64,000 bases of DNA from Candidatus Vecturithrix sp. (GTDB lineage: Bacteria; Moduliflexota; Moduliflexia; Moduliflexales; Moduliflexaceae). The notes under the pieces were generated by a model. That model ran no database searches, was not told the origin of the DNA, and was given only the letters and a program-made list of their open reading frames with translations. Of the stretch, positions 6,555 through 37,215 are shown one piece after another; within the stretch, counting starts at the first letter, position 1, and each line of letters starts with the position of its first letter. The stretch covers positions 5,048,545-5,112,544 of the forward strand of contig JAXGYF010000001.1 of assembly GCA_040772385.1 (NCBI GenBank), read 5' to 3'. Made by a program: the position numbers and the translations under genes.

Positions 6555-6800
6555 TCCCAGGAGCTGACAGGAATAGGTATTTTGTGCTGATGCCTCGTCC
6601 GGCCCAGCCATCAATGGCCGGTCTCAAAGCTGAAGCAGGCTGAAGCCCGCTCCCAAATTCCACAGGACGCTTCGGCGTCCTTCAACGTTGAGACTGGCGA
6701 TTGATCGCCAGGAGACAAGGCACACGAGTTTGCCCCTCACGTGATACCTACCCCTGGCAGCCTCCCAGGAGGCAGGGCTGTTAAGTTCTAAGACCTCACC
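6555..6800. repeat. Repeat family A intergenic element (contains near-palindrome CTGGCGATTGATCGCCAGG and GCTGAAGCAGGCTGAAGCCCGCT)
   Basis: Related copies occur at 20725-20885, 31745-31835, 35925-35965 (partial) and 37120-37215. This copy sits between the GRE-activase and GRE genes. Confidence 0.7.
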
Positions 6801-6816
6801 CCCGGCCCCTCCGAGA

Positions 6817-7710
6817 TTATCCTCCTATCATGACAATAAGCCCCTTGTTTTTGGCGTATTCAACGTAAGATTGTATTTCGTCTTCTGACACTGAGGCGGC
6901 CGGAAGGTCGTAGGTTCGGCCTAACAGTGCGTATTTCTGTCGCCCCAGAGCATGATAGGGGATCAAATGAACTTCGTGAATATTGGTCAACGAGGCAGCA
7001 AAGTCAATAATAGCGCACATTTCAGTTTCGCTATGGTTAAATCCAGGAATGACCGGAATGCGAGCGACAACCGGAACCTGCGCTGTTTCCAACTGCTTGA
7101 AATTCGAGATGATCAGGTCTAATCTCCCTCCGGTTGTAGTCTGAAATTTTTCAGGATCAGTATGTTTCAGGTCTGCCAGAAACAGATCGATATATTGGAG
7201 ATGTCTTTCGATCTGTTGCCAGGGCACGTGCAGACAGGTTTCCACGGCAACATGAATATCTAAGTTTTTGAGCTGCGGCAGTAATTCCGATAATATCTCC
7301 GGTTGGGCAAACGGTTCACCCCCGGAAACGGTCACTCCGCCGCCGCTTTTGCTGTAAAACGGAAGGTCTTTGCTGATTTCTGTCAGGATGTCCGTCACGC
7401 TCTTCTCTTCGCCGATCACCGTAATCGCTTTCGATGGACACACATCGTTAAAGGCGAAAGGCTGTTTGAGATGGTCGCGTTGCAGTCTGACCTGTCCATT
7501 ATCATTTATAAACTCCTGAAACTGTGAATGCTGGACGCATTCGAGACAGCCAATACATTTACGCGGTTCGAACATGAGATCATAGCCAAAAGATTGACTT
7601 TCAGGATTACTGCACCAGGAACAGCGCAAAGGACAGCCCTTGAAAAAGATCACCGTGCGAATGCCTGCGCCGTCATGCGTGGAAAAGCGTTGAATATTAA
7701 AAATCATCAA
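6817..7710 (-). CDS. Glycyl-radical enzyme activating enzyme (radical SAM)
   Basis: The CPLRCSWC CX3CX2C motif lies near the N-terminus, and a Gly-rich SAM motif GGGVTVSGGEP is present. The 297-aa size fits a GRE activase. Confidence 0.9.
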   Translation of the reverse strand: MMIFNIQRFSTHDGAGIRTVIFFKGCPLRCSWCSNPESQSFGYDLMFEPRKCIGCLECVQHSQFQEFINDNGQVRLQRDHLKQPFAFNDVCPSKAITVIGEEKSVTDILTEISKDLPFYSKSGGGVTVSGGEPFAQPEILSELLPQLKNLDIHVAVETCLHVPWQQIERHLQYIDLFLADLKHTDPEKFQTTTGGRLDLIISNFKQLETAQVPVVARIPVIPGFNHSETEMCAIIDFAASLTNIHEVHLIPYHALGRQKYALLGRTYDLPAASVSEDEIQSYVEYAKNKGLIVMIGG

Positions 7711-8122
7711 ATGGGGTACTCCATATATTCATCAATGGTGCTCAAACATTTTTTAGTTACCCCCCTCAATCCCACGCAAGTGAGGGAGACCAATCCCTTT
7801 CCCCGCGCTTATAGGGAGAATAAGAGAAGAGCGCAGCATAAGTTATCTGGGGTATTTTCATTTGAAGATTGAAGTGCTTCATTTAAAAGTCAAGGGATTT
7901 TTGATAAAATTTTCATGCTGATTTTTAGGGATATTTTATTTTACGTAATTTCAAAAAATCTCTGCTTCTGAGAAATCCTTTGTACTTACTGAGAAGAAAT
8001 AAGTTGACACTTGCACGCAGATATTTATGATTGTGTTGAGCAGTGATATGCTATGCATATGACGTATTTTAAGTCAGATTGAAATCAACTTCTATATTCC
8101 AAAGACAGGGAGGATAAGTCAC

Positions 8123-9028
8123 ATGAGAGAATTACTTATTCTGTTCGGGGCCTTGATTGGGTGGATACTTGGCTATGTTTTCCAACTCTATATACCCAAA
8201 AAGAGGAGAGAAAAAGGATTGGATCTCCAAAGGGAACTTGAAGAAGCCAAAGAGACGAATCGCCGCCTTGAAGCCCGACTCAGCCAATATCACAACCTGG
8301 AAGAACAACTCAATACTTGCAAAACCCAACGACAGCAGCAAACTGAAGAACTGGAAAATGTTCGCGCGAAACTCACCTCAGCCGAAGCACAGATTGCAAC
8401 CTTACAACAAGGGATAGCTTCCCTGGAGCAGAGAATTGAAACAGAAACACCAGCCTCTCCGGCAGAAGTCTCGCCGGAGATTAAGACGCAAACGCCTCCA
8501 ATAGAAACCTTTTTGGACATTGGAACGACAATTCCCACAATAGTTGAACGAGAAACTCCGCAAGACGTTGAAGTCGAAACGGTCTCTCCCGAAGTTGAAA
8601 TACATGTCCCTGAGAAAGTTCAATCAGAAACTACACCAGCCGAAACCTCGCAAGCGGTTATAGCAGAAACGTTGTTCGAAGACTCATCACCAGCGACAGA
8701 CGTAGAAATACCTTCAGAAGACATTCACCCGGAAAGCGAATCGAAATTATCGCGTTCAACTCCTGAAAAACCGGATAATCTTCGTAAAATTGAAGGAATT
8801 GGCCCCAAAGTTGCTCAACTCCTGAATGAAGCCGGCATTTTGACTTTCGAACAGCTCGCGCAAACCGAAAGCGACCGTCTACGAACTATTCTGGAAGAGG
8901 CCGGAGGTGTCTTTAAAGCCATGGATCCGGCAAGCTGGCCCGAACAAGCAGGTTTAGCTGCGAAAGGTGATTGGGAAGCGTTGAAAATCCTGCAAGACCA
9001 ACTCGACGGCGGACGCTATAAATCCTGA
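8123..9028 (+). CDS. Membrane-anchored coiled-coil protein with a C-terminal helix-hairpin-helix-like domain
   Basis: An N-terminal TM helix is followed by a long acidic coiled-coil and low-complexity region. The C-terminus carries an HhH-like motif, LRKIEGIGPKVAQLLNEAGILTFEQLA. A GGAGG RBS lies upstream. Confidence 0.5.
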   Translation: MRELLILFGALIGWILGYVFQLYIPKKRREKGLDLQRELEEAKETNRRLEARLSQYHNLEEQLNTCKTQRQQQTEELENVRAKLTSAEAQIATLQQGIASLEQRIETETPASPAEVSPEIKTQTPPIETFLDIGTTIPTIVERETPQDVEVETVSPEVEIHVPEKVQSETTPAETSQAVIAETLFEDSSPATDVEIPSEDIHPESESKLSRSTPEKPDNLRKIEGIGPKVAQLLNEAGILTFEQLAQTESDRLRTILEEAGGVFKAMDPASWPEQAGLAAKGDWEALKILQDQLDGGRYKS

Positions 9029-10198: not shown

Positions 10199-10232
10199 GA
10201 AAAAACCGGGTTTCTCAAAGAAACCCGGTTTG
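10199..10232. terminator. REP-type-1 hairpin AAAAACCGGGTTTCTCAAAGAAACCCGGTTT
   Basis: Same palindromic family as the other six copies. Confidence 0.6.
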
Positions 10233-10314
10233 TAGAGGTTTGACTTTGCTCAGTGTGCGCGGTCTGTCGAGCGGAGTCGAGACCGGAGTAAGTTCAGATC
10301 TGAAAATCTCTTGC

Positions 10315-11019
10315 TCAAGCAGGTAATCTGGTCAACATATTGAGCACCAGAGTTGCTGAGTTTTGAGCGGCGGTGGTCATGCAGGCGTGGTACATGGCAG
10401 GGCTGGCTTCAGCCGTCACCAGATCGGAGATCGAGCGGATAATCACAAAGGGCGTTTGAAAGAGATAACAGGTTTGGGCAATCGCCGCGCCTTCCATTTC
10501 TACAGCCATGACTTCCGGGAATTTCTGGCGAAGCGCACTAATCTGCTCATGCTGGTGGATAAAGGAATCGCCGGAGATAATCTGTCCCTGATGAATGCTG
10601 ATCTGTGCCTGCTCAGGTAACGAGTCGCACGCCAGCGCGACGAAGGTTTTATCCGGAAAGTAGGCGGCCGGCATCCGCGGAATCTGACCGTATTCATATT
10701 GAAAGATGGTGGCGTCCGCATCGTGATGCCGGACTTCCTTTGAGACCACAATATCTCCAACGCGCAGCACTTCCGGCGGAAATCCGCCGGCCACGCCGGT
10801 ATTGATCACCGCGTCCGGGTGGAATTTATCAATGAGCAAGGTCGCGCCTACGGCCGCATTCACTTTGCCAATCCCGCACAACAGCAAGGCAACCTCGTGT
10901 CCGCCCAGCCGACCGGTGTGATAGTGAAGCGGGCCGTATGCGGTCACGTGCTCTGCTTCCAGTCGGTGTTTCAAGTGCTCTAATTCTTCCGCCATGGCGG
11001 CAATCATTCCGATTTTCAT
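10315..11019 (-). CDS. mtnN: 5'-methylthioadenosine / S-adenosylhomocysteine nucleosidase
   Basis: A 234-aa sequence of the PNP_UDP_1 family. Motifs MKIGMIAAMAEE, GIGKVNAA and AVEMEGAAIAQ are typical of MtnN/Pfs. Confidence 0.8.
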   Translation of the reverse strand: MKIGMIAAMAEELEHLKHRLEAEHVTAYGPLHYHTGRLGGHEVALLLCGIGKVNAAVGATLLIDKFHPDAVINTGVAGGFPPEVLRVGDIVVSKEVRHHDADATIFQYEYGQIPRMPAAYFPDKTFVALACDSLPEQAQISIHQGQIISGDSFIHQHEQISALRQKFPEVMAVEMEGAAIAQTCYLFQTPFVIIRSISDLVTAEASPAMYHACMTTAAQNSATLVLNMLTRLPA

Positions 11020-11035
11020 ATTGTGCTTACTCCTA

Positions 11036-11211
11036 TGAAACTACAAGGATTTCTCATAAGCAAGGATGTGTTATCCCTGGTTATGTGAAATCCCTGTAGT
11101 TTCACCTGCCTGGTGAGCATTCCGCTCATGATAACTCCTTTGAAACTACAAGGATTCCTCATAAGCAAGGATTGTTATCCCTGGTTATGGGAAATCCCTG
11201 TAGTTTCACCC
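11036..11211. repeat. Two tandem copies of repeat family B stem-loop element (CTACAAGGATTTCTCATAAGCAAGGAT...CCCTGGTTATGnGAAATCCCTGTAGTTTCAC)
   Basis: Each 65-70-bp copy is internally palindromic. Further copies lie at 17040-17111 and, partially, at 37008-37045. Confidence 0.7.
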
Positions 11212-12096: not shown

Positions 12097-13532
12097 TCAT
12101 CAATTCAAGTTTACGAACAAAGATTTCTTTTGCGGTCGGATTGGTTATTTTTATTGTGCTGGGAACAAGCACCTTTGTTCATATTCAACAGTTAGAACGG
12201 GATTATCTGCAAGCGGTTGAATGGCGCGCTGAAGCTCTGTCGCAGGGGATTCTCAACCAGATTATGAACAACCAGGAATATGATCCGAAGTATTATATTC
12301 ATAATCCCGGCCTGTTAGGCGTGTTTTCGTTGCAATGTATGCAATTATATGAGCGCAATAGAGCGCAGAATGTCGCGCATATCAGTATTATTAATGCGGC
12401 CAACGTCATCGCGGCGCATAACGACAGAAACCTCTGGGACACCCCGATAGAGAATGCTCTGCTCCGTGAGAGTCTTGAGCGGCAGGAATTAGTGACTGTC
12501 CTCGCCGGAAATACCTATCATACCCTTGTGCCGATTGTGTGGAATCGAAATATTTATTTGGGAAGCATTGATATTGGGTTTCCCAAGCAGGTCGTTGACC
12601 GCAAAGCGCGGGAATTGATGATGAATTCGGCGATCTTATTCTGTATTTATTTGATTATGGCGGTTTTTGCCAGTTCGACCCTCATGCATATCATGTTGAG
12701 AAATATCAGTCGTATTCGCCAGGGGATCGAAACGCTGTTTCAGGATCCTACCTATACTCTGCCGCCGGTGAAAGGGGAATTCAATGTGATTGTCGAAAAG
12801 ATTAATGAATTAGTTACTAATGTAGCGGCAATGAAAAAATATGAAGACGAGCTGGAGAAACGGGAACGTATGGCGGTGCTAGGCGAGATGGCCCTGGGCG
12901 TGGCGCATGAGATTAAAAATCCTCTCACCTCAATCAAAGGTTTTACCCAGATGTTGCAGCGCACAGCCCCGGACAATGCCAGAACAGTCAAGTACCTGGA
13001 TTTAATCGACGCGGAACTCAATCGGGTCAATAAGCTGCTGAATGAGCTGCTTGTGTATGGAGGCCGGACGTCATTACAATTCACAGAGGCAGATCTGGAA
13101 CAGATTATTTCGGAATTCATTGATAAATTACACATAAACCATCCCCAAATCCGCGTGAAGAAACGTCTGCAAGGACAAAACTTTCGGGTACGGCTTGATA
13201 AGCACAAAATGATTCAGGTCTTTGATAATCTGCTCAATAACGCGGTTGAGGCCCTGAGCGAGAGAGAGAAGCCAGTGATTGGCATTTTTATGCAGGCGCG
13301 AGAAACAGGCGTGACAATTACTTTTATGGATAATGGCTGCGGCATTCAGACCGCCTATCTTGACAAGGTGCTGCATCCCTTTTTCACCACCAAACCAAAC
13401 GGCTATGGCTTCGGATTGGCGATTTCCTATAAAATCCTTGAACAACACGGCGGTAATTTGCAATTGTTTTCGCGTGAGGCGTGCTATACCAAAATTGTCC
13501 TCACGCTGCCAAAATGTCAGGCCCAAAAATGA
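12093..13532 (+). CDS. Sensor histidine kinase (two N-terminal TM segments, HisKA + HATPase_c)
   Basis: The H-box HEIKNPLTSIKGF is followed by N, G1 and G2 boxes (NLLNNAVEA, DNGCGI, GYGFGLAIS). It overlaps the dhaL stop by 4 nt. Confidence 0.8.
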   Translation: MIINSSLRTKISFAVGLVIFIVLGTSTFVHIQQLERDYLQAVEWRAEALSQGILNQIMNNQEYDPKYYIHNPGLLGVFSLQCMQLYERNRAQNVAHISIINAANVIAAHNDRNLWDTPIENALLRESLERQELVTVLAGNTYHTLVPIVWNRNIYLGSIDIGFPKQVVDRKARELMMNSAILFCIYLIMAVFASSTLMHIMLRNISRIRQGIETLFQDPTYTLPPVKGEFNVIVEKINELVTNVAAMKKYEDELEKRERMAVLGEMALGVAHEIKNPLTSIKGFTQMLQRTAPDNARTVKYLDLIDAELNRVNKLLNELLVYGGRTSLQFTEADLEQIISEFIDKLHINHPQIRVKKRLQGQNFRVRLDKHKMIQVFDNLLNNAVEALSEREKPVIGIFMQARETGVTITFMDNGCGIQTAYLDKVLHPFFTTKPNGYGFGLAISYKILEQHGGNLQLFSREACYTKIVLTLPKCQAQK

Positions 13533-13616
13533 TCCTACGTGAGTTGTGTCATGACACTTCGACTCCGCTCAGTGTCCGGAGCGGGGGTCGAGACATAAAT
13601 CATTCAGGATGTCTAT

Positions 13617-14957
13617 ATGAAATATAAACTGCTGATTACAGATGACGAACAGAGCGTCAGAATTTTCTTAAAAGATCTGTTTCTTGAGGAAGGATTTGAT
13701 GTCTGTGAAGCCAAAGATGGCAAAGAAACCCTTGAGGCCGTCAGAAATGACGCGCCGCATATTATTATTCTTGATCTTAAACTTCCGGATTTGAATGGCC
13801 TGGAGTTGATTTCACAGATCAAAAAAGAGCAGCCGCTTGCCGAAATCATCATTATTACAGCCCTGGGCACAGTCGAAAATGCGGTGAAAGCGATCAAATT
13901 CGGCGCGTATGATTTTATCACCAAGCCTTTTGATATCGAAACGATTCTGATCGTGGTCAAACGCGCGGTGGAATATATCACTGTCAGCCGCGAGAATATT
14001 GCGTTAAAGCAGTTACAAAAAAATAAAATCTATTTTGAGGAATTTATTGGGGAATCCGAAGAGATTCGCACTATTAAAAATCTGATTGTCAAACTCGCGC
14101 ACACGGACGTGCCTATTCTGATTACGGGGGAAACCGGGACAGGGAAAAATATTTTAGCCCAGCAGATTCATTTTACCTTATCGGCCCATGAAACGCCGCT
14201 GGCCTATATCAATTGCCCCGGGATTCCCGATTCGCTGTTTGAATCGGAATTTTTCGGACATGAAAAAGGGGCCTTTACCGGCGCAAATACCCAGAAAAAA
14301 GGACGTATTGAGGAAGCGCGCGACGGCACGTTGATTCTTGATGAAATCTCAGAGCTGCCCCTGAGCATTCAAGCCAAACTCTTAGATTTTCTACAAACCA
14401 GGAATTTTTACCGGGTCGGAAGTAATCACCAGATTTCGCTCAAAACCCGGGTTGTTGCTCTTTCGAATAAAAATCTTCAGGCCGAGATCGAACAAGGACG
14501 ATTTCGAAAAGACTTGTTGTATCGTTTGAATGTGATCCATCTGCACATCCCCCCGCTGCGGGAGAGAACTGAGGACATCATGCTGTTCGTCGAATATTTT
14601 TTGAAAACTTTCCGCAAACGGTATGCCAGGAACATCAGCGGAATTTCGGATTCCTGTCGACAGCTTCTGTTGAATTATCCCTGGCCGGGCAATGTGCGTG
14701 AATTGAAAAATGTGCTGGAACGCGCCTGCATTGTGTGCGAACATCCGATCATTGATGAACATGCCATCATTTTTGAAACCTCGCATCAGCAGTCAGCACC
14801 AAAAGATTTGAAGAACTTGATGAACGCTTATGAAAAACGTCTGCTGATTCAAGCCCTGGCCCGACATAATGGCAACCGGGTGAAAACCTCGGAAGAATTG
14901 CAGATTTCTCTGCGAAATTTGCACTATAAATTGAGTAAGTATCAGATTAGCGGCTAG
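13617..14957 (+). CDS. Sigma-54-dependent response regulator (REC + AAA+ sigma-54 activator + Fis-type HTH), NtrC family
   Basis: A REC domain with a DLKLPD phospho-acceptor region is followed by Walker A GETGTGKN and a GAFTGA-like segment. The C-terminal HTH region matches the NtrC-family layout. Confidence 0.85.
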   Translation: MKYKLLITDDEQSVRIFLKDLFLEEGFDVCEAKDGKETLEAVRNDAPHIIILDLKLPDLNGLELISQIKKEQPLAEIIIITALGTVENAVKAIKFGAYDFITKPFDIETILIVVKRAVEYITVSRENIALKQLQKNKIYFEEFIGESEEIRTIKNLIVKLAHTDVPILITGETGTGKNILAQQIHFTLSAHETPLAYINCPGIPDSLFESEFFGHEKGAFTGANTQKKGRIEEARDGTLILDEISELPLSIQAKLLDFLQTRNFYRVGSNHQISLKTRVVALSNKNLQAEIEQGRFRKDLLYRLNVIHLHIPPLRERTEDIMLFVEYFLKTFRKRYARNISGISDSCRQLLLNYPWPGNVRELKNVLERACIVCEHPIIDEHAIIFETSHQQSAPKDLKNLMNAYEKRLLIQALARHNGNRVKTSEELQISLRNLHYKLSKYQISG

Positions 14958-14990
14958 TGCAAGTTTTTGCACGTCATGGTGCAAGATTTT
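14947..14990 (+). promoter_or_regulatory. Candidate enhancer (UAS) for the sigma-54 regulator: TGCAAG / TTGCAC...GTGCAA half-site palindromes
   Basis: TGCAAGTTTTTGCACGTCATGGTGCAAG lies about 120 bp upstream of the -24/-12 element. This arm pattern is typical of NtrC-family activator sites. Confidence 0.4.
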
Positions 14991-15107
14991 TCGTGATGAT
15001 TTCCAGACAACGAATCTTTCGGAAAAAATCATGTTGCATCCATTTTTCTTGACAATAAGGGGAAATATTCCACATCAATAATCGTTATTTGTGCTACGGA
15101 GTTCCTG

Positions 15108-15123
15108 TTGGCATAATGTTTGC
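15108..15123 (+). promoter_or_regulatory. Sigma-54 (-24/-12) promoter TGGCATAATGTTTGCT upstream of the lactate permease gene
   Basis: GG and GC fall at the canonical spacing of TGGCAC-N5-TTGCW. The site is about 110 bp upstream of the ATG at 15232, and the adjacent gene encodes a sigma-54 activator. Confidence 0.55.
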
Positions 15124-15152
15124 TTTCTGTCATAACGTTGTGTCATAAAACA

Positions 15153-15187
15153 AGAAACCAGGTTTTTTTGAAAAAACCTGGTTTCTC
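15153..15187. repeat. REP-type-1 hairpin AAGAAACCAGGTTTTTTTGAAAAAACCTGGTTTCTC, here in a 5' leader
   Basis: Palindrome of the same family, located between the sigma-54 promoter and the lactate permease start. Confidence 0.55.
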
Positions 15188-15231
15188 CTTTGATTTGTCC
15201 TGCTCACAAGATAAACAAAAAATAAAGGAGG

Positions 15232-16932
15232 ATGGGTATGCCATTAGGAGTTCTTGCAATTATCGCTGCGATCCCCATTGTGTTAGTACTGGTATTGATG
15301 GTAGGGCTGCGTTGGCCTTCGACCAAAGCGATGCCGTTGGCGTGGGTCGTCACTGGGTTACTTGGCATGGTGATCTGGAAAATGTCACCTGGGTTTATTT
15401 TGGCTTCCACTTTAAGTGGGTTTGGGAGTGCAATCAATGTGTTAGTAATTGTTTTTGGCGCGGTGTTGATTTTATACACCTTGCGGGAAAGTGGTGCAAT
15501 GGATACCATCAGTTACGGGTTTCTGCATCTTTCTCGCGATCGCAGAGTTCAGGCGATTATCATTGCATTTATGTTCGGCGCGTTTATCGAAGGCGCGGCC
15601 GGGTTCGGTACTCCTGCGGCGTTGGCTGCGCCGCTGCTCCTCGGACTTGGTTTTCCGGCCATGGCTGCCGTCTGTCTGGCTCTGATCTGCAACTCTGTGC
15701 CTGTAACGTTCGGGGCGGTCGGCACGCCGATCTGGTTCGGCTTGACTCCTATAGAACCCTCGATTGAAGAGGCTATTGCTCAGGGAACGGCCAACGGCTT
15801 TACGACCTTTGACGGGTTTCTAAGAAACGTGTCTGTGTGGTCTGCGCTGATTCATGGGCTTGTTGCAATCGTTCTGCCGTTGTTTCTTGTCTGCTTTATG
15901 ACCCGTTTTTTTGGCAAGAATAAACTCTGGAGCGAAGGTCTGGGGGCCTGGCAATTCTCGCTATTTGCCTCAGTCTCATTTATTATTCCTTATTTTCTCA
16001 TGGCCGTGTTATTTGGTTCTGAATTTCCTTCCTTGATCGGCGGCTTGATCGGATTGGGAATCACCATGACCGGGGCGAAAAAGAAATGGTTTACGCCAAA
16101 GCGGGTCTGGGATTTTGCGGAACGATCGCAATGGGAAAAAGAGTGGGTCGGGGAAGTCGAACCCGGTTCGACAACCATCACGCCCAAAATGAGCCAGTTA
16201 GCCGCCTGGACGCCTTACATTTTGATTGCCATTCTCCTGGTACTCACCCGTGTGAATTTCCTGCCCTTCAAAGCATGGCTGAATACCTGGGGCAAAATCT
16301 CTTTCACTCATATTCTGGGGTATGAAACGGTGAATTTCAGTATGACTCCTCTCTATCTGCCAGGAACAATTCCGTTTACGCTGATCGCGATCATCACAAT
16401 TTTCCTGCATAAAATTCCGGCGGAGAAAGTTAAAATAGCCTGGACACAATCCTTTCAACGATTGAAAAGCCCAACGATTGCATTGTTATTTGCTGTCGCC
16501 ATGGTGGAAATTTTAAAACAATCAGGCGTCAATCCGGCCGGATATAAATCCATGCCATTGACGATGGCGTTGGCAGTGGCGGCCATTGTTGGCAAAACCT
16601 GGCCGTTCTTTGCCGCCTATGTCGGTTCTTTAGGGGCCTTTATTGCCGGCAGCAATACCGTCTCGAATCTGTTGTTTTCAAGTTTTCAATATGGACTGGC
16701 GTCCACCGTGGGCATCAGCCGCGAAATTATCGTGGCCTTACAAGCTGTGGGCGGCGCAATGGGTAATATGATCTGCGTGCACAATGTGGTGGCAGCGTTA
16801 GCAACGGTAGGTCTGGTCGGGATCGAAGGGCTTATCATTCGCCGTACCCTCGTTCCGATGATTTTATACGGCATTCTGGCCGGCACGCTTGGTTTGCTCT
16901 TCTCGTATGTCTTTTTTATTGGAATATTTTAA
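15232..16932 (+). CDS. L-lactate permease (LctP/LldP family)
   Basis: A 566-aa polytopic membrane protein whose N-terminal third (MGMPLGVLAIIAAIPIVLVL... through GFGTPAALAAPLLLGLGF) fits the lactate permease family. The internal ORF at 15120-15767 is an overlapping artefact. Confidence 0.8.
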   Translation: MGMPLGVLAIIAAIPIVLVLVLMVGLRWPSTKAMPLAWVVTGLLGMVIWKMSPGFILASTLSGFGSAINVLVIVFGAVLILYTLRESGAMDTISYGFLHLSRDRRVQAIIIAFMFGAFIEGAAGFGTPAALAAPLLLGLGFPAMAAVCLALICNSVPVTFGAVGTPIWFGLTPIEPSIEEAIAQGTANGFTTFDGFLRNVSVWSALIHGLVAIVLPLFLVCFMTRFFGKNKLWSEGLGAWQFSLFASVSFIIPYFLMAVLFGSEFPSLIGGLIGLGITMTGAKKKWFTPKRVWDFAERSQWEKEWVGEVEPGSTTITPKMSQLAAWTPYILIAILLVLTRVNFLPFKAWLNTWGKISFTHILGYETVNFSMTPLYLPGTIPFTLIAIITIFLHKIPAEKVKIAWTQSFQRLKSPTIALLFAVAMVEILKQSGVNPAGYKSMPLTMALAVAAIVGKTWPFFAAYVGSLGAFIAGSNTVSNLLFSSFQYGLASTVGISREIIVALQAVGGAMGNMICVHNVVAALATVGLVGIEGLIIRRTLVPMILYGILAGTLGLLFSYVFFIGIF

Positions 16933-16946
16933 TGTGATTTTTGGGT

Positions 16947-16978
16947 AAAAACCGAGTTTTTTCAAAAAACTCGGTTTT
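16947..16978. terminator. REP-type-1 hairpin AAAACCGAGTTTTTTCAAAAAACTCGGTTTT
   Basis: Palindrome directly after the lactate permease stop codon. Confidence 0.6.
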
Positions 16979-16989
16979 ATACGTATCAA

Positions 16990-17017
16990 TGACAATTTTA
17001 TTTTATGAGAATTGTCA
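16990..17017. promoter_or_regulatory. Operator-like palindrome TGACAATT-N12-AATTGTCA upstream of etfB
   Basis: Perfect 8-bp inverted arms in the etfB leader, adjacent to a family B repeat. Confidence 0.3.
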
Positions 17018-17039
17018 TGAGTTTACGATCGCCCGACAT

Positions 17040-17111
17040 CATGAAACTACAGGGATTTCACATAAGCACGGATAACACACTCTTGCTTATGAGTGTGATC
17101 CTTGTAGTTTC
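17040..17111. repeat. Repeat family B stem-loop element
   Basis: GAAACTACAGGGATTTCACATAAGCACGGATAACAC...CTTGTAGTTTCAC, ending just before the etfB start codon. Confidence 0.65.
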
Positions 17112-17126
17112 ACAGGAGAAAACTTT

Positions 17127-17930: not shown

Positions 17931-18123
17931 TCTTTTGTCATGTCTTAAATGACGGGTTCGTACCGCGGACATCCTTGTCCGCAATGCCCGGACAGGGATG
18001 TCCGGGGTACATAACAACCCATCACTGTCAACTTGACAAAATAGCAGATACAATCAGAGCTTATGCAGCTTACTCAGATGAAACCATTCCGGTTACTCTG
18101 CGGACCGTTTATCTGGAAACGCT

Positions 18124-20682: not shown

Positions 20683-20724
20683 TTGAATCATCTGATGTAC
20701 TCCACCCCGGCCCCTCTCCAAAGG

Positions 20725-20885
20725 AGATCTGACAAGGGTAGGTATTTGATGCTGACGCCTCGTCCGCCCAGCCATTAATGGCCGGTCTCAAGGCCGAAGC
20801 AGGCTGAAGCCCGCTGCTGAATTCCGAAGGGCGCTTCAGCGTCCTTCGGCTTTGAGACTGGCGATTGATCGCCAGGACGGGTCTT
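20725..20885. repeat. Repeat family A intergenic element
   Basis: Near-identical to the 6560-6715 copy: CCTCGTCCGCCCAGCCATTAATGGCCGGTCTCAAGGCCGAAGCAGGCTGAAGCCCGCT...CTGGCGATTGATCGCCAGG. Confidence 0.7.
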
Positions 20886-23705: not shown

Positions 23706-23714
23706 GTTGTGGTC

Positions 23715-25763: not shown

Positions 25764-25778
25764 GCGTATTGGCTTTCA

Positions 25779-25900: not shown

Positions 25901-25957
25901 TTCATTTTCGGTTGTTCTGCTTCTCACTTAGAAGTCTTGTAATCATGGGAGACGCCT

Positions 25958-28488: not shown

Positions 28489-29486
28489 AGCACGCACGTA
28501 CCAGTCAGAAAAGTTATCGGCTTAGCTCTGTAAAAACCGCGCTCGGCCCTTATGTGGTGCTGATGCTCTTGATCATCATCGCCTCGATTCTTGCGCCCGG
28601 ATTTTTAACAGTGCAAAATGTGTTGAATTTACTCAGAAGTTTTTCCTTTCTCGGATTTATCAGTATTGGTATGACCTTTGTGATCCTCTCGGCCGGCATT
28701 GATTTATCCGTCGCTTCGGTTCTTGCGCTGTGTGGGGTCGTAACCGCTCTCCTCCAGCATTGGGGCATCTATTTAGGCTATACCGACGAGCTTTCCTTTA
28801 TCTATCCTGTGCCCTTGATTTTTTTTACTGTGCTCGTCATCGGCGCGGCGCTCGGCTTTATAAACGGACTGGTTATCGCAAAATTGAAAATTGCTGATTT
28901 TGCGGCGACTTTGGGTATGATGGTCTTTGCCAGAGGATTGGCATTTGCTATCAGCGGGGGGCGGACGATCTTTGGCGTGAGTGAAGCAACGCTCTTTATG
29001 GGACGGGGCACAATCGGAAACATCCCCTTTGTCGCACTTTTGTGGATTGCGGCGATTCTGATCAGCGGGTTTGTCCTGAAATACACAATTTTCGGAAAAA
29101 ACCTCTATGCCAGCGGAGAAAATCCTGAAGCAGCCAGACTGTCAGGAATCAATCCTGATTTTTATAAAATCGCAGTCTATACGATCTCCGGATTTTTGGC
29201 CGCCCTGGCCGGAATCTGCATGACCGGACGTTTGAACGTCGGCGAACCCCGAGTCGCACAGGGCTGGGAATTGGATGCGATTGCAGCGGTCGTGATTGGC
29301 GGCACATCTTTTGCCGGAGGAGAGGGAGGAATCGTCAAAACCATTGTCGGCGTTATGATTATCGCCTTGATCCGAAACATCCTGAGTTTACTCGGTATTC
29401 TGCCGGAACCTCAGCAGATGATCATGGGTGTTGTGTTGTTAGGGGCTGTGATCCTCCAACACTGGAGCGCCAAAAGAGAGGTATAA
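28485..29486 (+). CDS. Sugar ABC transporter permease (second RbsC-like subunit)
   Basis: Paralog of the 25958-26965 permease, with GIDLSVASVLA and GWELDAIAAVVIGGTS motifs. Confidence 0.85.
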   Translation: MKHARTSQKSYRLSSVKTALGPYVVLMLLIIIASILAPGFLTVQNVLNLLRSFSFLGFISIGMTFVILSAGIDLSVASVLALCGVVTALLQHWGIYLGYTDELSFIYPVPLIFFTVLVIGAALGFINGLVIAKLKIADFAATLGMMVFARGLAFAISGGRTIFGVSEATLFMGRGTIGNIPFVALLWIAAILISGFVLKYTIFGKNLYASGENPEAARLSGINPDFYKIAVYTISGFLAALAGICMTGRLNVGEPRVAQGWELDAIAAVVIGGTSFAGGEGGIVKTIVGVMIIALIRNILSLLGILPEPQQMIMGVVLLGAVILQHWSAKREV

Positions 29487-29494
29487 TATGAACT

Positions 29495-29560
29495 TCTATG
29501 CTCGTAGTTCGCGCTTTAGCGCGTTCTTCCGCCTGAAGGCGGAACTACGAACTCATCTAC
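29495..29560. repeat. Single copy of the repeat family C double-hairpin element
   Basis: CGTAGTTCGCGCTTTAGCGCGTTCTTCCGCCTGAAGGCGGAACTACG. Confidence 0.7.
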
Positions 29561-29587
29561 GCTAACTTACCAGGAACTCTATTCATT

Positions 29588-30355
29588 ATGAACACATACG
29601 ACACACAGAAAAGATTTACAGAAAAAGTGGCCATTATTACCGGAGCCGGACTGGGGATGGGACGCCAGACAGCGTTGGATATGGCAGCAGAAGGGGCTAA
29701 CATTGCTGCGGTTGATATTCTTGAAGACCATATTGGCTCGCTACAGCAAGAGATCGAAACAGGCGGCGGGCAATGCCTTGCCATCCGCTGTGATATTGCC
29801 GACCGGCAGCAAGTGGAGGCGATGGTCAAAAAAACCTTCAAAACTTTCGGGCGGATTGATATTCTGATTAACAACGCCGGGTTGCTGATTCCGGGTACAA
29901 TTGAGGAAACCACGGATGAATTGATTGATAAAACCCTGGCTATTAATGTCAAAGGCGTGTTATATGCCATCCGGGCCGTGACGCCGATTATGAAAGCCCA
30001 GAAATATGGCCGAATCGTGAATGTTGCTTCCATCACAGGGAAACGGGGAGATAACTCTACGATCTTTGTCTATGGCGCATCCAAAGGTGCGGTGATCTCG
30101 CTTACCCGTTCGACCGCCAGACAACTAGGGCCTTTTGGCATTACCTGCAACGCCATCGCGCCCCATGCTGTCATGACAGAGATGATGAAATATTGGGATG
30201 AAGACAAAAAAGCGCGCATGGCGGAATCCATCCCGCTCAAACGCCTGGGCACCGTCGCAGATATGTCCAATCTGATGAGGTTTCTGGCGTCCGATGAAGC
30301 CTCGTTTATTACCGGAGAAACGATAAATATTAACGGCGGTTATTATATGGATTGA
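29588..30355 (+). CDS. Short-chain dehydrogenase/reductase (SDR) family oxidoreductase
   Basis: TGAGLGMG cofactor-binding motif, NNAG, and the catalytic YGASK Tyr-x3-Lys. The protein is 255 aa. Confidence 0.85.
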   Translation: MNTYDTQKRFTEKVAIITGAGLGMGRQTALDMAAEGANIAAVDILEDHIGSLQQEIETGGGQCLAIRCDIADRQQVEAMVKKTFKTFGRIDILINNAGLLIPGTIEETTDELIDKTLAINVKGVLYAIRAVTPIMKAQKYGRIVNVASITGKRGDNSTIFVYGASKGAVISLTRSTARQLGPFGITCNAIAPHAVMTEMMKYWDEDKKARMAESIPLKRLGTVADMSNLMRFLASDEASFITGETININGGYYMD

Positions 30356-30401
30356 CAAATTTATGTTGTTCTTGATAGTGGTGAATTGTAGAAAAAACCG
30401 A

Positions 30402-30427
30402 GTTTTTTCAAAAAACTCGGTTTTTAA
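30402..30427. terminator. REP-type-1 hairpin AAAAACCGAGTTTTTTCAAAAAACTCGGTTTTT
   Basis: Palindrome after the SDR gene. Confidence 0.6.
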
Positions 30428-30457
30428 GAGAATACGCAACATCTACAAGGAGGAACT

Positions 30458-30769
30458 ATGGCAGAGAAAAATACAGAGGCATTAGGAATGATCGAAACGC
30501 GAGGGTTCGCCGCTATGGTGGAAGCTGCTGATGCAATGGTGAAAGCGGCAAAGGTGGACCTGGTGGGCTATGAAAAAATCGGCGGCGGCTATGTGACGGC
30601 TATTATCAGAGGCGATGTCGCGGCTGTGAGAGCCGCTGTTGACGCAGGAGCCCGCGCGGCCGAACGTGTCGGAGAAATCGTATCCACCCATGTTATTCCC
30701 CGGCCTCACGGTAATGTGGATTGTGCGCTGCCGCTTGGCCGCAAGCCTGAAGAAGGGAAAGAGTTATGA
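30458..30769 (+). CDS. BMC shell protein, BMC-H (PduA/EutM-like hexamer)
   Basis: Canonical BMC domain: [58 protein letters not shown]. Confidence 0.9.
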
Positions 30770-31398
30770 ATATTGACGTAAGAACCTATATTTTTTTAGA
30801 TTCATTGCAATTACAAATGGCCTCGTTTCTTGCGACGATTTCACGCGGCTATTATCCGGTGGCGGATCAGGCCTGCTGCATCATTGAAATCGCTCCTGGC
30901 ATTGAAATTAACCGCTTAACGGATATTGCCTTAAAAGCGACCAATGTTGCGCCCGGCTTGCAGGTGGTCGAACGCGCCTTTGGACTGCTGGAAGTTCATT
31001 CGGATGAACAAGGCGATGCGCGTCAGGCCGGCGAAGCTATTTTGCAAGAAATCGGGAAAACCGAAGCCGATCGTCTCAAACCGCGCATTTTGACCAGCCA
31101 ATTGATTCGCCATGTTACCGATCATCACGCTCAATTGATTAACCGGACGCGCTATGGCAACATGGTGCTGCGCGGCGACACCTTATATATTCTGGAAGTC
31201 GAACCCGCTGGCTACGCGTATTACGCCGCGAATGAAGCAGAAAAGGCGTCGCATATCAACATTATCAATGTCCAGGGGTTCGGAAAATACGGTCGTGTGT
31301 ATATTGCCGGTGACGAGGCTGAGGTGATTGAAAGTCAGACAATCGTCGAGGCTCGTTTAGAGGGCCTGACAGGTCGAACAGTTTCATCTTCTGATTAA
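30766..31398 (+). CDS. Probable tandem-BMC-domain shell protein (BMC-T)
   Basis: A 210-aa protein with two BMC-like halves ([22 protein letters not shown]... and [31 protein letters not shown]...). The call rests on manual pattern matching alone. Confidence 0.55.
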
Positions 31399-31715: not shown

Positions 31716-31744
31716 CAAGGCTTAAGCCTTGACATCAATGTCAA

Positions 31745-31835
31745 GGCTCAAAGCAAAAGCAGGCTAAAGCCAGCTAGAGTGCGCTTTAGCGTACTTCAGC
31801 TTTGAGCCTGGCGATTGATCGCCAGGCTTAAGTCT
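31745..31835. repeat. Repeat family A element (partial) plus a CTTAAGCCTTGACATCAATGTCAAGGCTCAAAG hairpin, inside the BMC operon
   Basis: Contains AAGCAGGCTAAAGCCAGCT...CTGGCGATTGATCGCCAGGC. Confidence 0.6.
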
Positions 31836-35142: not shown

Positions 35143-35917
35143 ACTCATTGAAAAAATTACCAAAGAAGTGATGCAACGTTTACAGGCCGAACTCAGCCGG
35201 CAGGGGATGGGAACCGCCGTGCCGGCGGCCGGCGGCGTTCAGCTTTCAGCGGCTGAACTGGCAAAATATATTGATCACACCCTCTTAAAACCGGATGCCC
35301 TGCAAGGTGCGATTGATAAGGTTTGTGAAGAGGCGATTCAATATAAATTCAAATCCGTCTGCGTCAATTCAACCTGGGTGCCTTATGTGGCGAAAAAGCT
35401 GCAACGTACCGGCGTGCTGGTGTGCTCGGTGGTCGGATTTCCATTGGGCGCGATGGAGAGCCGCGCGAAAGCTTTTGAGACGCGTCAGGCGATTGAAAAC
35501 GGCGCGCGGGAGATTGACATGGTCATCAATGTCGGCGCGTTAAAATCCGGAGATTTGAAAACCGTGGAAGAAGACATTCGCGCCGTGCGGCGGGCTACGC
35601 GCGGCACCACCATTCTGAAAGTGATTCTTGAAACCTGCCTGTTGAAGGATGAGGGAAAAGTGATTGCCTGCGAGCTTGCCAAAAAAGTCGGCGCAGATTT
35701 TGTGAAAACCAGTACCGGATTTGCCGGCGGCGGTGCGACCGTGGAAGATGTGACCTTAATGCGGCGGGTTGTCGGCCCGAATATCGGCGTCAAAGCCAGC
35801 GGCGGTGTGCGCGACTACGAGACAGCTATTGCCATGATTGCCGCCGGCGCGACCCGGCTCGGCACGTCGTCCGGCGTCGCCATTGTCACCGGCGCACAGG
35901 GGAAAGGCGCGTATTAA
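35129..35917 (+). CDS. deoC: Deoxyribose-phosphate aldolase (DERA) with an N-terminal encapsulation-peptide-like extension
   Basis: The DeoC core ([25 protein letters not shown], Schiff-base Lys in DFVKTSTGF) is preceded by [19 protein letters not shown]. Start is placed at the ATG with a GAGGAA RBS; the ORF track gives a longer 35093 start. Confidence 0.85.
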
Positions 35918-36021
35918 GGGCGTATTAAGTCCGCCCAGCCATCAATCGCCAGGAGACCGGGTACACGAGGTTGTCCTTCAAGTTATCCCTCCCCCTGTCA
36001 GCGCAGGGAGTTTATGTCCCT

Positions 36022-37008
36022 TTATTTATCGAGCGGACTCTTGACCGCGAGTGCGCCTGTTTGCATGACATGCGTGTAGATCATGGTGGTTGATACCTCT
36101 TCATGTCCGAGTAACTCCTGGACGATATGGATGTCATAGCCGTCTTCCAGCAGATGCGTGGCAAAACTGTGGCGGAACGCATGGCAGGTGACGCGTTTGG
36201 AAAGACCTGCGGCGCGGGCAGCCTGTTTGACAGCGCGCTGGAATCCTTCCCCGCTGGCATGATCGCGATAGGCCTTTCCGGATTGGGGATCGGTCGAAAG
36301 GGTTGCTGAGGGAAATACGTATTGCCAGATCCAGGCGGTTTCGGCGTGAGGATATTTTCGGGCCAGAGCAAAGGGCAAAGGCGTCCTGCCATGGCCAGCT
36401 TTCAGGTCATCTTCATGTAAGCGTTTGACCCTGGCAAGGTGATGCTGCAAAGGTTCTTGTAACACATCCGGCAGCATAGTGCGTCGGTCTTTCATCCCTT
36501 TACCGGAGCGGACGGTGATCTCACGCCGGGCAAAATCGAGGTCCTTGATGCGTAAGCACAGACATTCCATCATACGCAAACCGCTGCCATACAGCACCTG
36601 AGCCATGAGTTGATAGGTGCTTGAAAGCTGGTTGAGCACCCGTTGCACCTCTTCTCTGGTCAAGACGGTCGGAATATAGCTGGACTCTTTGGCTCGCTGA
36701 ACATGAATTTTGCCGGGCAGATCGATATTCAGGACTTTGCGATAGAGCAGAATGAGCGCGCAGAGCGCCTGACGCTGGGTCGTCGCCGTGACATGGCGTT
36801 TTACAGCTAAATGAGTGAGAAAGGCCTCGATCTCTGTTGTCCTCATCGTTGCCGGATGACGATAGCCATGAAAGCGTAGATATTGACGAATCCAGTCGAG
36901 ATACACTTCCTCCGTCCGCGGCGAATAGTGCTTGAAACGTATGGTTTTCCGGACTTGATCCAGCAGTTTGTTCAGTTCATCTGTTGATAACGTTCGTGTG
37001 CGATTCAT
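36022..37008 (-). CDS. intI: Integron integrase (IntI, tyrosine recombinase with the integron-specific additional domain)
   Basis: The IntI-specific insertion [24 protein letters not shown] aligns, by recall, to IntI1 [20 protein letters not shown]. Catalytic motifs [39 protein letters not shown] and a C-terminal AVKSPLD are present. Confidence 0.85.
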
Positions 37009-37215
37009 AAGAAACTACAAGGATTTCTCATAAGAAAAGGATTTCATTCAATCGTTCCAGAATCACAACAACGAATTCGTTCGTTTCTCAATTTGTTGTT
37101 GTGCTGGACAAGATTTCCTGGTGATCAATCGCCAGTCTCACAGCGGAAGGACGCTGAAGCGCCCTCCGGAATTCAGCAACGGGTTTCAACCTGCTTCAGC
37201 TTTGAGATCGGTCAT
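37008..37215. repeat. Inter-intI spacer with a partial family B repeat (37008-37045), hairpin CACAACAACGAATTCGTTCG...GTTGTTGTG, and a family A repeat (37120-37215)
   Basis: Direct sequence comparison with the other copies of families A and B. Confidence 0.6.

What the first reader, a model, noticed from the sequence alone, without database searches (positions are those of the whole stretch)
6555..37215. Two further dispersed repeat families (A: ~150 bp with CTGGCGATTGATCGCCAGG; B: ~70-bp stem-loop GAAACTACAAGGATTTCTCATAAGCAAGGAT) inserted inside operons
Family A has five copies (6555, 20725, 31745, 35925 partial and 37120). Family B has four (11036 twice in tandem, 17040 and 37008 partial). 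Copies lie between co-transcribed genes: the GRE activase and GRE genes, the BMC-H and BMC-P genes, and the lctP and etfB genes. Copies of both families also lie just upstream of the first intI. They look like non-autonomous mobile elements (MITE-like) or small-RNA genes.
Basis: seen in the sequence. Interest (0 to 1): 0.5.

Follow-up and report, generated by a model that had tools for sequence, protein, structure and literature searches.

The report
Nested hairpin mini-transposons inside operons
The two repeat families are real. They are best read as small non-coding mobile DNA elements (MITE-like) of an uncultured KSB3/Modulibacteria bacterium that have recently landed between, and in a relative inside, genes: a clear but fairly ordinary kind of genome parasite, not small-RNA genes.

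Summary

**Family A** is a ~115-nt core of four short hairpins plus one long-range stem. The window has four full copies (6597-6715, 20761-20879, 31719-31829, and 37113-37232 reversed) and one collapsed copy (35929-36001). The core also occurs in Bacterium UASB270 (Ca. Vecturithrix granuli) and in a 'Ca. Moduliflexus' MAG.

- Copy A1 sits in a 197-bp element with terminal inverted repeats and a perfect 11-bp target-site duplication. That element is nested in a ~282-bp insertion.
- The insertion is missing from three orthologous loci, where the activase stop and the GRE start are only 2-6 nt apart.
- Four related elements in other KSB3 loci have flanking repeats of about 11 bp. Three are near-perfect and one matches 8 of 11. 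All targets are short palindromes, which explains the nesting.
- In UASB270 a copy lies in frame inside an AddB-like gene.

**Family B** is a 30-bp hairpin kept intact by compensatory changes. In four copies an AGGAG follows 3 nt after the hairpin. No TIR/TSD or empty site was found for it.

There is no Rfam match, and no promoter or terminator consensus at the Family A copies. The MITE-like reading is supported; the small-RNA reading is not. These are new members of a known kind.

The parts
6597..6715 (+). Family A core, copy A1 (H1, long-range stem P, H2, H3, H4), antisense to the activase-GRE operon
   Evidence: nhmmer 124 bits; alignment A1; structure counts
6564..6760 (+). 197-bp 'O-type' MITE that carries A1. 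TIRs are CTGACAGGAATAGGTAT / CTGCCAGGGGTAGGTAT (13 of 17)
   Evidence: script check of TIR and flanks
6553..6563 (.). Left 11-bp target-site duplication CCTCCCAGGAG
   Evidence: 11/11 identical to 6761-6771
6761..6771 (.). Right 11-bp target-site duplication CCTCCCAGGAG
6534..6815 (.). Whole ~282-bp composite insertion between the activase stop (6817-6819) and the GRE start (6519-6521). Flanked by an imperfect duplication, ATTATCTTCCC (6523-6533) / ATTATCCTCCT (6816-6826). Contains a lone CAGGGCTGTTAAGTTCT TIR at 6773-6789
   Evidence: Orthologous loci L109, L110 and L111/L112 have a 2-6 nt spacer, GGAGGATAA(nn)ATG; flank match 9/11
20761..20879 (+). Family A core, copy A2, between the FAD-oxidase (lctD-like) and larA genes, in sense orientation
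   Evidence: nhmmer 128 bits; absent from L102, which is 95% identical in the flanks
20702..20760 (+). Left side of A2: outer palindrome arm CCACCCCGGCCCCTCTCCAAAGG (20702-20724) and the O-type left arm CTGACAAGGGTAGGTAT... (20729-20760). The right O arm is missing, so the element is truncated
31719..31829 (+). Family A core, copy A3, between BMC-H (stop at 31715) and EutN/BMC-P (start at 31848). A solo core with GGCTTAAG on both sides and no TSD
   Evidence: identical in Logan contig L114
37113..37232 (-). Family A core, copy A4, between the two integron-integrase genes. A degraded solo core
   Evidence: nhmmer 118 bits on the - strand. Folding z-scores only -1.1 and -1.5, so not distinguishable from shuffles
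35929..36001 (+). Collapsed Family A copy A5: the 5' half of H1 fused to the 3' half of H4, plus a complete O-type right arm ending ...CCTGTCAG
   Evidence: (D17)
11037..11105 (-). Family B hairpin B1. On the PNP-gene sense strand it ends 3 nt before AGGAG, then 10 nt, then the ATG at 11019
11142..11210 (-). Family B hairpin B2, the tandem 105-bp duplicate of B1
   Evidence: (D11, D18)
17043..17110 (+). Family B hairpin B3, just upstream of the etfB SD and start (17127). Conserved in L102
37011..37042 (-). Family B half copy (one arm), abutting the start codon of the integron integrase at 37008
7957..7995 (-). Degenerate Family B remnant upstream of the activase gene. A matching half copy lies upstream of the activase gene in L109
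   Evidence: nhmmer E=0.024, weak; L109 1228-1261

Best explanation

- Two TIR frames carry it. The O-type begins CTGACAGG... and the M2-type begins CAGGGCTGTTAAG....
- A transposase supplied in trans (not identified) makes staggered cuts 11 bp apart at short palindromic targets. This produces the 11-bp duplications.
- Because the elements are themselves palindromic, they become targets for further insertions. This gives the nested, mosaic composites seen here. (Inference.)
- The window's lineage gained A1 and A2 recently.
- Insertions survive where they do not break expression. At A1, the duplication around the composite preserved the activase stop codon on one side and a Shine-Dalgarno-like GAGGGAAG plus spacer for GRE on the other.
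- Once transcribed within an operon mRNA, the core would fold into four local hairpins. These may act as barriers to RNA decay or as processing sites. This step is inferred, not shown.
- Solo cores without TIR or TSD are read as old or truncated copies.

**Family B** is a second dispersed palindromic element, older and more widespread in KSB3.

- It is a ~30-bp perfect-stem hairpin with conserved flanks.
- In one subfamily the flank includes an AGGAG, so the unit supplies or replaces the ribosome-binding region of the downstream gene.
- Its mode of spread is not shown.
For: **Shown**
1. Family A copies are highly significant. The family also occurs in UASB270 and in a Moduliflexus MAG.
2. TIR plus a perfect 11-bp TSD at window 6564-6760. 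The same TSD length appears at L040 2178-2315 (11/11) and L003 5842-5984 (10/11), both of which carry the A core. It also appears at L111 9696-9795 (12-bp CCTTTACGAAAG repeat) and L102 1556-1679 (8/11), which carry other cargo.
3. Empty sites: the activase-GRE spacer is 2-6 nt in L109 (GRE 93% identical), L110 (84%) and L111/L112 (83%), against 295 nt in the window.
4. L102 is 95% identical in the flanks but lacks the A core at the A2 site. It carries its own 293-bp nested palindromic insertion where the window is empty, near 14995.
5. A 40-aa in-frame insertion in the UASB270 AddB-like protein is absent from an 83%-identical ortholog.
6. The local-hairpin structure is 88.6% paired, with 8 compensatory pairs against 2.3 in shuffles (0/500). 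The rival single long hairpin gets no support.
7. Orientation relative to transcription is 4 sense to 3 antisense, as read from the flanking ORFs.
8. No Rfam family matches. No promoter or terminator consensus lies at the Family A copies.
9. Family B: a 30-pair hairpin with 8 compensatory pairs among 7 sequences, copies at unrelated loci in three KSB3 genomes, and AGGAG 3 nt after the hairpin in 4 copies.

**From the literature**
MITEs are defined as under 500 bp, with TIRs of 4-30 bp and direct repeats in young copies that wane with time. In-operon and in-frame insertions are known (PMC10969869).
Against: - No autonomous element with matching TIRs was found.
- Five of eleven A cores have no TIR or TSD. 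The core may therefore spread by another route, such as recombination, gene conversion or a hairpin-recognising HUH transposase.
- The outer A1 insertion has a 9/11 flanking duplication but no TIRs.
- Family B has no TSD and no empty site. Its consistent position next to an SD could reflect a conserved function rather than mobility.
- No expression data are available, so every RNA-level effect is inference.
- Compensatory changes in related repeat copies can exceed shuffle controls without selection.
Confidence: 0.72

Rival explanations
1. REP/BIME/REPIN-like elements. The short imperfect palindromes (H1-H4, and the Family B arms) would be recognised as single-stranded hairpins by a REP-associated tyrosine (HUH/Y1) transposase. 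They would spread without TSDs and form mosaics of palindromic units.
For: - Modular mosaic of 18-20-nt palindromes. H1 resembles reverse-complemented H4, and H2 resembles reverse-complemented H3.
- Conserved mismatches in the stems (A·C in H1 and H2 in 9-11 of 11 copies).
- Solo cores with sharp edges and no TSD.
- Intergenic position within operons.
Against: - Five elements have clear TIRs and flanking repeats of about 11 bp. RAYT-type transposition does not make these.
- No conserved GTAG-type head is visible in the alignment.
- No Y1 transposase appears in the window or the loci examined. The only transposases seen are IS91-type Y2 and IS1634.
Confidence: 0.12
2. Conserved cis-acting RNA structures: intercistronic mRNA stabilisers or processing sites for Family A, and a 5'-UTR stabiliser or translation module for Family B. 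They would be maintained by selection at fixed places and would not be mobile.
For: - Compensatory changes keep the hairpins intact.
- Positions between genes that need unequal dosage (BMC-H/BMC-P, activase/GRE).
- B hairpin placed 3 nt before AGGAG in four copies.
- B3 is conserved in L102.
Against: - A1 and A2 are absent from close relatives at the same sites.
- Copies occur in both orientations and, in a relative, inside an ORF.
- No strand bias. Wobble pairs and mismatches are split between the strands for A. Folding energies favour the sense strand in 5 of 7 B copies (one of these by only 0.4 kcal/mol) and the antisense strand in 2.
- The downstream genes are functionally unrelated.
Confidence: 0.1
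3. Independent small-RNA genes, or integron attC-like recombination sites scattered through the chromosome. The second idea arises because two intI genes lie next to copies A4, A5 and B4.
For: - Stable folds, with z-scores of -4 to -8 for A1-A3.
- Proximity of three copies to two integron integrases.
Against: - No Rfam hit.
- No sigma-70-like promoter or intrinsic terminator at the Family A copies.
- Most copies lie 5-30 kb from the integron, inside metabolic operons.
- The stem ends do not fit the attC R''/R' consensus (RYYYAAC...GTTRRRY) on inspection of the alignment (consensus recalled from memory).
- TSDs are not produced by IntI recombination.
Confidence: 0.04

Closest known systems
Prokaryotic MITEs inserted in operons, e.g. 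Chunjie of Geobacter uraniireducens (as described in review PMC10969869)
   Same: Under 300 bp, non-coding, with TIRs and flanking direct repeats. Many full and partial copies of variable size. Insertion inside an operon without destroying it. Strongly folding transcripts.
   Different: No sequence relationship was tested or expected. Here the conserved repeat is an internal hairpin cargo shared by two TIR frames. The targets are short palindromes and the elements are nested. The TSD is 11 bp. No parent IS is known.
Rickettsia palindromic elements (RPEs) and intragenic ERIC/RU elements (PMC10969869, PMC2759123)
   Same: Palindromic repeats of about 100-150 bp that can sit in frame inside protein-coding genes. 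The UASB270 AddB-like protein carries a 40-aa insert encoded by an A core.
   Different: Only one clear in-frame case was seen here, plus one overlap with the 5' end of a permease gene. Most copies are intergenic. The phylum and the sequence are different.
E. coli BIMEs/REPs and REPINs (Delihas review PMC3184786)
   Same: Mosaic combinations of short imperfect palindromes in transcribed intergenic spacers. Inverted pairs of units. Palindromic units serve as insertion targets for other mobile elements.
   Different: TIR/TSD-bounded elements are present. There is no GTAG head and no RAYT was found.
IS4-family transposition (IS231/IS4-type, 10-13-bp TSD at symmetric targets). Recalled from memory, so a lead only
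   Same: An 11-bp duplication of a target with dyad symmetry. Element ends begin with C(A/T)G.
   Different: No transposase gene is linked. The IS1634-family gene in the window (49722-51050) has no matching TIRs nearby. The family assignment is untested.

Membership tests
MITE | Short (under ~500 bp) and without a transposase gene | tested here: met
   Elements are 100-293 bp. The only ORFs that overlap window copies run off into flanking sequence.
MITE | Terminal inverted repeats | tested here: met
   O-type TIRs match at 13 of 17 positions (window 6564-6760). M2-type CAGGGCTGTTAAG is present at both ends in L040, L003, L102 and L111. Not met for solo A cores or in the strict sense for B, which is a whole-length palindrome.
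MITE | Target-site duplication flanking the element | tested here: met
   Matches of 11/11, 11/11, 10/11, 12/12 and 8/11 at five elements. None for solo cores or for B.
MITE | Multiple dispersed copies and insertion polymorphism (filled versus empty sites) | tested here: met
   At least 13 A cores in the window and eight KSB3 loci. Empty sites for A1 in L109, L110 and L111, for A2 in L102 and for the AddB-like gene in L113.
MITE | A related autonomous IS with the same TIRs that can mobilise it | not testable with these tools
No matching transposase was found in the 64-kb window or the fetched loci.
REP/BIME/REPIN | Imperfect palindromes of about 20-40 nt occurring singly, in inverted pairs and in mosaics | tested here: met
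   H1-H4 are 18-20-nt palindromes. H1 and H4, and H2 and H3, form inverted pairs.
REP/BIME/REPIN | Conserved 5' GTAG-type tetranucleotide and no TSD | tested here: not met
   No such head appears in alignment A1. TSDs of 11 bp are present on the TIR-bounded copies.
REP/BIME/REPIN | A cognate RAYT (Y1 transposase) gene flanked by the repeats | not testable with these tools
   None in the window. The whole genome could not be searched.
Known structured RNA or sRNA family (Rfam) | Match to a curated covariance model | tested here: not met
   No hit at gathering threshold over the whole window. Over 6400-38000 at E<=1 there were only chance-level hits.
Independent sRNA gene | Own promoter and terminator | tested here: not met
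   No consensus promoter or terminator at the Family A copies. One promoter-like match overlaps the 3' end of B3. This is a consensus scan only; RNA-seq was not available.
Integron attC site | R''/L''...L'/R' architecture with a GTTRRRY core, located in a cassette array | tested here: not met
   By inspection of alignment A1, the stem ends read TCTCAAAG...CTTTGAGA. Copies lie in metabolic operons far from the intI genes. No dedicated attC model was available.

The most novel reading that the evidence does not exclude
The ~115-nt A core may not be mere cargo. It could be a self-contained structured module, made of four covarying hairpins with conserved mismatches, that moves between TIR frames, operon spacers and ORFs by a hairpin-directed (HUH/RAYT-like or recombinational) route distinct from the 11-bp-TSD transposition. 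The host would then use it as an intercistronic RNA element that sets the ratios of neighbouring gene products (BMC-H to BMC-P, activase to GRE). In parallel, Family B could be a mobile 'hairpin + Shine-Dalgarno' cassette that supplies translation-initiation regions to the genes it lands in front of.
Probability: 0.15. Interest if true: 0.65.

Novelty: new member of a known kind. Interest (0 to 1): 0.35.

Why it matters
- These appear to be the first repeat elements described for the candidate phylum KSB3/Modulibacteria. The KSB3 genome paper mentions only CRISPR and rRNA repeats.
- They account for most of the large differences between two genomes that are 95% identical over 17 kb.
- They break short-read assemblies. 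Logan contigs L100 and L101 end in hairpin repeats: both end inside the terminator-type hairpin at 16946-16983, and L100 starts inside Family B copy B2.
- They can mislead gene callers, because ORFs extend into or across them.
- The preference for palindromic targets with an 11-bp TSD gives a simple mechanism for 'Russian-doll' nesting.
- The A1 case shows how an insertion between translationally coupled genes can be tolerated.
- None of this overturns current ideas about MITEs.

Tried and rejected
- **Genome-collection scan.** The pattern CTGGCGATYRATCGCCAG was too permissive.
- **Metagenome scan with a 23-mer.** One hit, L108, which proved to be a chance match inside an AcrB gene.
- **Two viral-contig scans.** Nothing found.
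- **Exact-protein look-ups.** LarA and BMC-H were not on record. EutN returned only the same strain.
- **Single ~55-bp extended hairpin for Family A.** Rejected: 75.6% paired, no better than shuffles, with five positions that never pair.
- **Strand-specific RNA function.** Rejected for lack of any strand bias.
- **14-nt direct repeat around A3 (31636/31876).** Rejected as a TSD. It encodes the same VSTH motif in the BMC-H and EutN genes.
- **Candidate autonomous partner in L040 (448-aa ORF near a TIR-like motif).** It is a sugar-binding protein, not a transposase.
- **Rfam at a permissive threshold.** Only chance-level hits.

Full report
**1. Observation**

The Family A 19-mer hits 5 places against 0.04 expected. 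The Family B 31-mer hits 3 places against 0.00 expected.

A repeat scan and a profile search define Family A as a core of about 115 nt:
- 6597-6715 (+)
- 20761-20879 (+)
- 31719-31829 (+)
- 37113-37232 (-)
- a collapsed copy at 35929-36001

Family B is a hairpin of about 70 nt:
- 11037-11105 and 11142-11210, a 105-bp tandem duplication
- 17043-17110, inverted on the + strand
- a half copy at 37011-37042
- a weak remnant at 7957-7995

**Gene context**
- A1 lies between a glycyl-radical-enzyme activase (6817-7710, -) and its GRE (4107-6521, -).
- A2 lies between a GlcD-type FAD oxidase and LarA, in an lctP-etfB-etfA-lctD-larA lactate cluster.
- A3 lies between a BMC-H gene and EutN (start at 31848).
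- A4 and the B half copy lie between two genes that both score as integron integrases (TIGR02249 scores 440 and 406, cutoff 265).
- B3 follows a strong terminator-type hairpin after lctP (16946-16983). 'Between co-transcribed genes' is therefore doubtful for that copy.

**2. Where else it occurs**

A pattern scan of one genome per species returned eight informative loci. Six are from 'Bacterium UASB270' and two are from an 'uncultured Candidatus Moduliflexus' MAG. All contain full A cores. NCBI names the UASB270 protein set Candidatus Vecturithrix granuli.

The window is therefore from a KSB3/Modulibacteria relative. Its proteins have no 100% match in the NCBI part of the protein collection, but identical genes occur in Logan assemblies. 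The KSB3 genome paper mentions only CRISPR and rRNA repeats.

Family B occurs in UASB270 (L090), the Moduliflexus MAG (L003), and a 'candidate division KSB3' genome, GCA_002748445.1 (L111/L112). L109 has a half copy. Family A was not found in L102, L109-L113 or L103-L107.

**3. Anatomy of Family A**

The core reads:

H1 (CCAGCC-ATCAAT-GGCCGG) | P 5' strand (TCTCAAAGCTGA) | H2 (AGCAGGC-TGAA-GCCCGCT) | linker of about 12 nt | H3 (AGGGCGC-TTCA-GCGTCCT) | P 3' strand (TCAGCTTTGAGA) | H4 (CTGGCGA-TTGA-TCGCCAG)

The whole core is a quasi-palindrome, so two folds compete. They were compared on 11 aligned copies:

| Fold | Cells paired | Compensatory pairs | Shuffle control |
|---|---|---|---|
| Four local hairpins plus stem P | 88.6% | 8 | 2.3 expected; 0 of 500 shuffles reach 8 |
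| Single extended hairpin | 75.6% | 5 | no better than shuffles; five positions never pair |

The never-pairing positions are exactly where H1 differs from H4, and H2 from H3, in ways that keep each local hairpin intact.

Wobble pairs do not favour one strand. H1 and H2 carry an A·C on the aligned strand, which would be U·G on the other. H3 carries G·U. Orientation relative to transcription is 4 sense to 3 antisense. Together these argue for a DNA-level, or strand-indifferent, origin of the symmetry.

**4. Evidence for mobility**

*a) A1 lies inside a bounded element.* Window 6564-6760 is 197 bp. Its ends are CTGACAGGAATAGGTAT and CTGCCAGGGGTAGGTAT in inverted orientation. It is flanked by CCTCCCAGGAG at 6553-6563 and again at 6761-6771, an 11/11 match.

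*b) The same flank length recurs* on elements with a second TIR, CAGGGCTGTTAAG:

| Locus | Flanking repeat | Match | Cargo |
|---|---|---|---|
| L040 2178-2315 | CCTGTTCGCAG | 11/11 | A core |
| L003 5842-5984 | CACGTCGAACG / CACATCGAACG | 10/11 | A core |
| L111 9696-9795 | CCTTTACGAAAG | 12/12 | AT-rich |
| L102 1556-1679 | CTCCCCAAAGG / CTCCCCTTTGG | 8/11 | G-rich hairpins |

Every one of these targets is a short palindrome: CCTCC-CA-GGAGG, GCGAAC...GTTCGC, CACGT-CGA-ACGTG, CCCCCTTT-ACG-AAAGGGGG and CTCCCCAAAGGGGAG.

*c) Empty sites for A1.* In three orthologous loci the activase stop and the GRE start are 2-6 nt apart (...GGAGGATAATTATG...). These are L109 (GRE 93% identical), L110 (84%) and L111/L112 (83%). 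The window has 295 nt there. The inserted block, about 6534-6815, is flanked by ATTATCTTCCC and ATTATCCTCCT (9/11). The copy on the activase side keeps GGAGGATAA, that is Gly-Gly-stop. The copy on the GRE side keeps a GAGGGAAG-ATAATT-ATG initiation region.

*d) Comparison with L102.* L102 is a JGI contig that is 95% identical and collinear with window 13526-30902. The A2 site holds a different palindromic filler between similar outer arms. L102 carries a 293-bp nested palindromic insertion where the window is empty, near 14995. A 63-nt tandem unit is present once in L102 and three times in the window. A fourth indel, at 25796-25932, is again a palindromic filler. All four large differences in 17 kb are therefore at palindromic repeats.

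*e) Insertion inside a gene.* In UASB270 an A core with a left O-type arm lies in frame inside a 1219-aa AddB-like ORF. That ORF is annotated as such at NCBI. The 83%-identical ortholog (P0242, locus L113) lacks exactly 40 aa there. The DNA alignment shows a sharp left junction. In L090 an A core overlaps the 5' end of an ABC-permease ORF.

*f) Copies without boundaries.* Five cores (A3, A4, L027, L059, L075) have no TIR or TSD. A2 has only a left arm. A5 has lost most of the core.

**5. Family B**

Seven sequences align to a 30-pair hairpin, with 8 pairs showing compensatory change. Conserved blocks are the stem ends (GAAACTACARGGAT...ATCCYTGTAGTTTC) and an inner ATAAGCA/TGCTTAT block. The stem sequence between these blocks differs between copies but stays complementary.

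In B1, B2, B3 and the L090 copy, read on the strand of the downstream gene, the unit is CCRRCAnnnTG-hairpin-CAnAGGAG. A start codon follows 5-10 nt later. L111 and L003 lack the AGGAG.

Folding energies do not consistently favour the sense strand. Five of seven copies do (one by only 0.4 kcal/mol) and two favour the antisense strand.

B1 and B2 arose by tandem duplication in situ. An ORF starting after the AGGAG of B2 ends in ATGA on the PNP start codon. This may be chance.

I found no TSD, no TIR beyond the palindrome itself, and no empty site. B3 is conserved in L102.

**6. What it is not**
- No Rfam family matches.
- No promoter or terminator consensus lies at the Family A copies.
- The stem ends do not fit the attC consensus, and most copies are far from the integron.

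**7. Interpretation**

The best-supported reading is a set of nested, MITE-like, non-autonomous elements. The review definition of a MITE is: under 500 bp, TIRs of 4-30 bp, direct repeats in younger copies that wane with time, and stable stem-loop transcripts. In-operon and in-frame insertions are documented (PMC10969869; see also PMC3184786 and PMC2759123).

It also persists as solo, probably decayed, copies.

The 11-bp duplication of dyad-symmetric targets points to a transposase dimer that cuts 11 bp apart. From memory, this is typical of some IS4-family elements (IS231/IS4). That is a lead only; no partner gene was found.

The preference for palindromic targets explains the nesting. It may also explain the position of copies in intercistronic and terminator-like hairpins.

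RNA-level consequences, such as decay barriers, processing sites or altered translational coupling, are plausible but untested.

Family B is filed as a second, older palindromic repeat, with lower confidence about how it spreads.

**8. Verdict**

The MITE-like interpretation is supported, with the refinement that the repeat is cargo in nested elements. The small-RNA interpretation is not supported.

Novelty: new members of a known kind, in a phylum where none had been described. Interest is moderate to low (0.35).

Noticed in passing
window 23515-23703 and 29488-29550; L102 10178-10240 and 16033-16095: A third repeat family. The unit is 63 nt: a 12-bp stem enclosing two GC hairpins, GCGCTTGAGCGC and TTCCGCCTGAAGGCGGAA. 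This is the same architecture and loop type (CTGAAG/CTTSAG) as the inner part of Family A. It is present 3 times in tandem after the dctP-like gene in the window but only once in the 95%-identical L102.
   Followed up: partly
window 1356-1392, 2575-2611, 10201-10237, 15154-15190, 16947-16983, 22201-22237, 30393-30429: A family of near-identical bidirectional terminator-type hairpins (AAAAACCGGGTTTC-loop-GAAACCCGGTTTTT) at gene ends. Logan contigs L100 and L101 end inside one of them.
   Followed up: partly
window 35909-35929: An 11-bp tandem duplication, GCGTATTAAGG / GCGTATTAAGT, covering the stop codon of the DeoC-like gene and directly abutting the collapsed copy A5. Its length equals the TSD of the MITEs, so it could be an excision footprint.
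   Followed up: no
window 36022-38322: Two integron-integrase genes in tandem on the same strand (TIGR02249 scores 440 and 406). A 40-nt inverted repeat (CACAACAAC...GTTGTTGTG, 37066-37105), a Family B half copy and A4 lie between them.
   Followed up: partly
window 39125-41658 and 52274-54813: Two copies, 87-89% identical, of a ~2.5-kb unit that encodes a tyrosine recombinase plus an IS91-family Y2 transposase. The unit has high GC (0.57-0.59) and sits in a low-GC island that also encodes NACHT/STAND NTPases and an IS1634-family transposase (49722-51050).
   Followed up: partly
window 46455-46536, 55543-55623, 59930-60010, 61135-61184: A repeat of about 80 nt (GGCGGGCGGAAAAATKGGTTGC...GCGCCCGCC...GCGCCCCTGAAGCGGGGCGTTCG) spaced 1.2-9 kb apart, downstream of the two intI genes. 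These are possibly the attC sites of the cassette array. Not tested.
   Followed up: no
L102 1470-1762 (empty site at window ~14995): A 293-bp, three-layer nested palindrome. The layers are AT-rich outer arms, then CACCCCCGACCCCTCCCCAAAGG arms, then a CAGGGCTGTTAAGTTCTC-TIR element with G-rich hairpins. It is present in the relative between the sigma-54 activator and lctP and absent from the window.
   Followed up: partly
window 25796-25932 versus L102 12333-12477: The orthologous spacer holds unrelated palindromic fillers in the two 95%-identical genomes. The window version has arms GAGAACCCGTTTAAG...AGTAACTAC, reminiscent of the ends of Family B.
   Followed up: no
window 11019-11131 (- strand): A 37-codon upstream ORF starts after the AGGAG of B2, reads through B1, and stops at a TGA that overlaps the ATG of the PNP-family gene (ATGA). 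It could give translational coupling or be chance.
   Followed up: no
L090 1476-1838 and 2107-2667 (UASB270): A Family B copy with AGGAGG sits directly in front of an ORF that begins like the C-terminal part of a GH13 amylase (MKKQGVPTIYYGDE...). An A core supplies the first ~30 codons of the longest ORF of an ABC permease. Both suggest that the repeats reshape gene starts, or mark gene fragments.
   Followed up: partly
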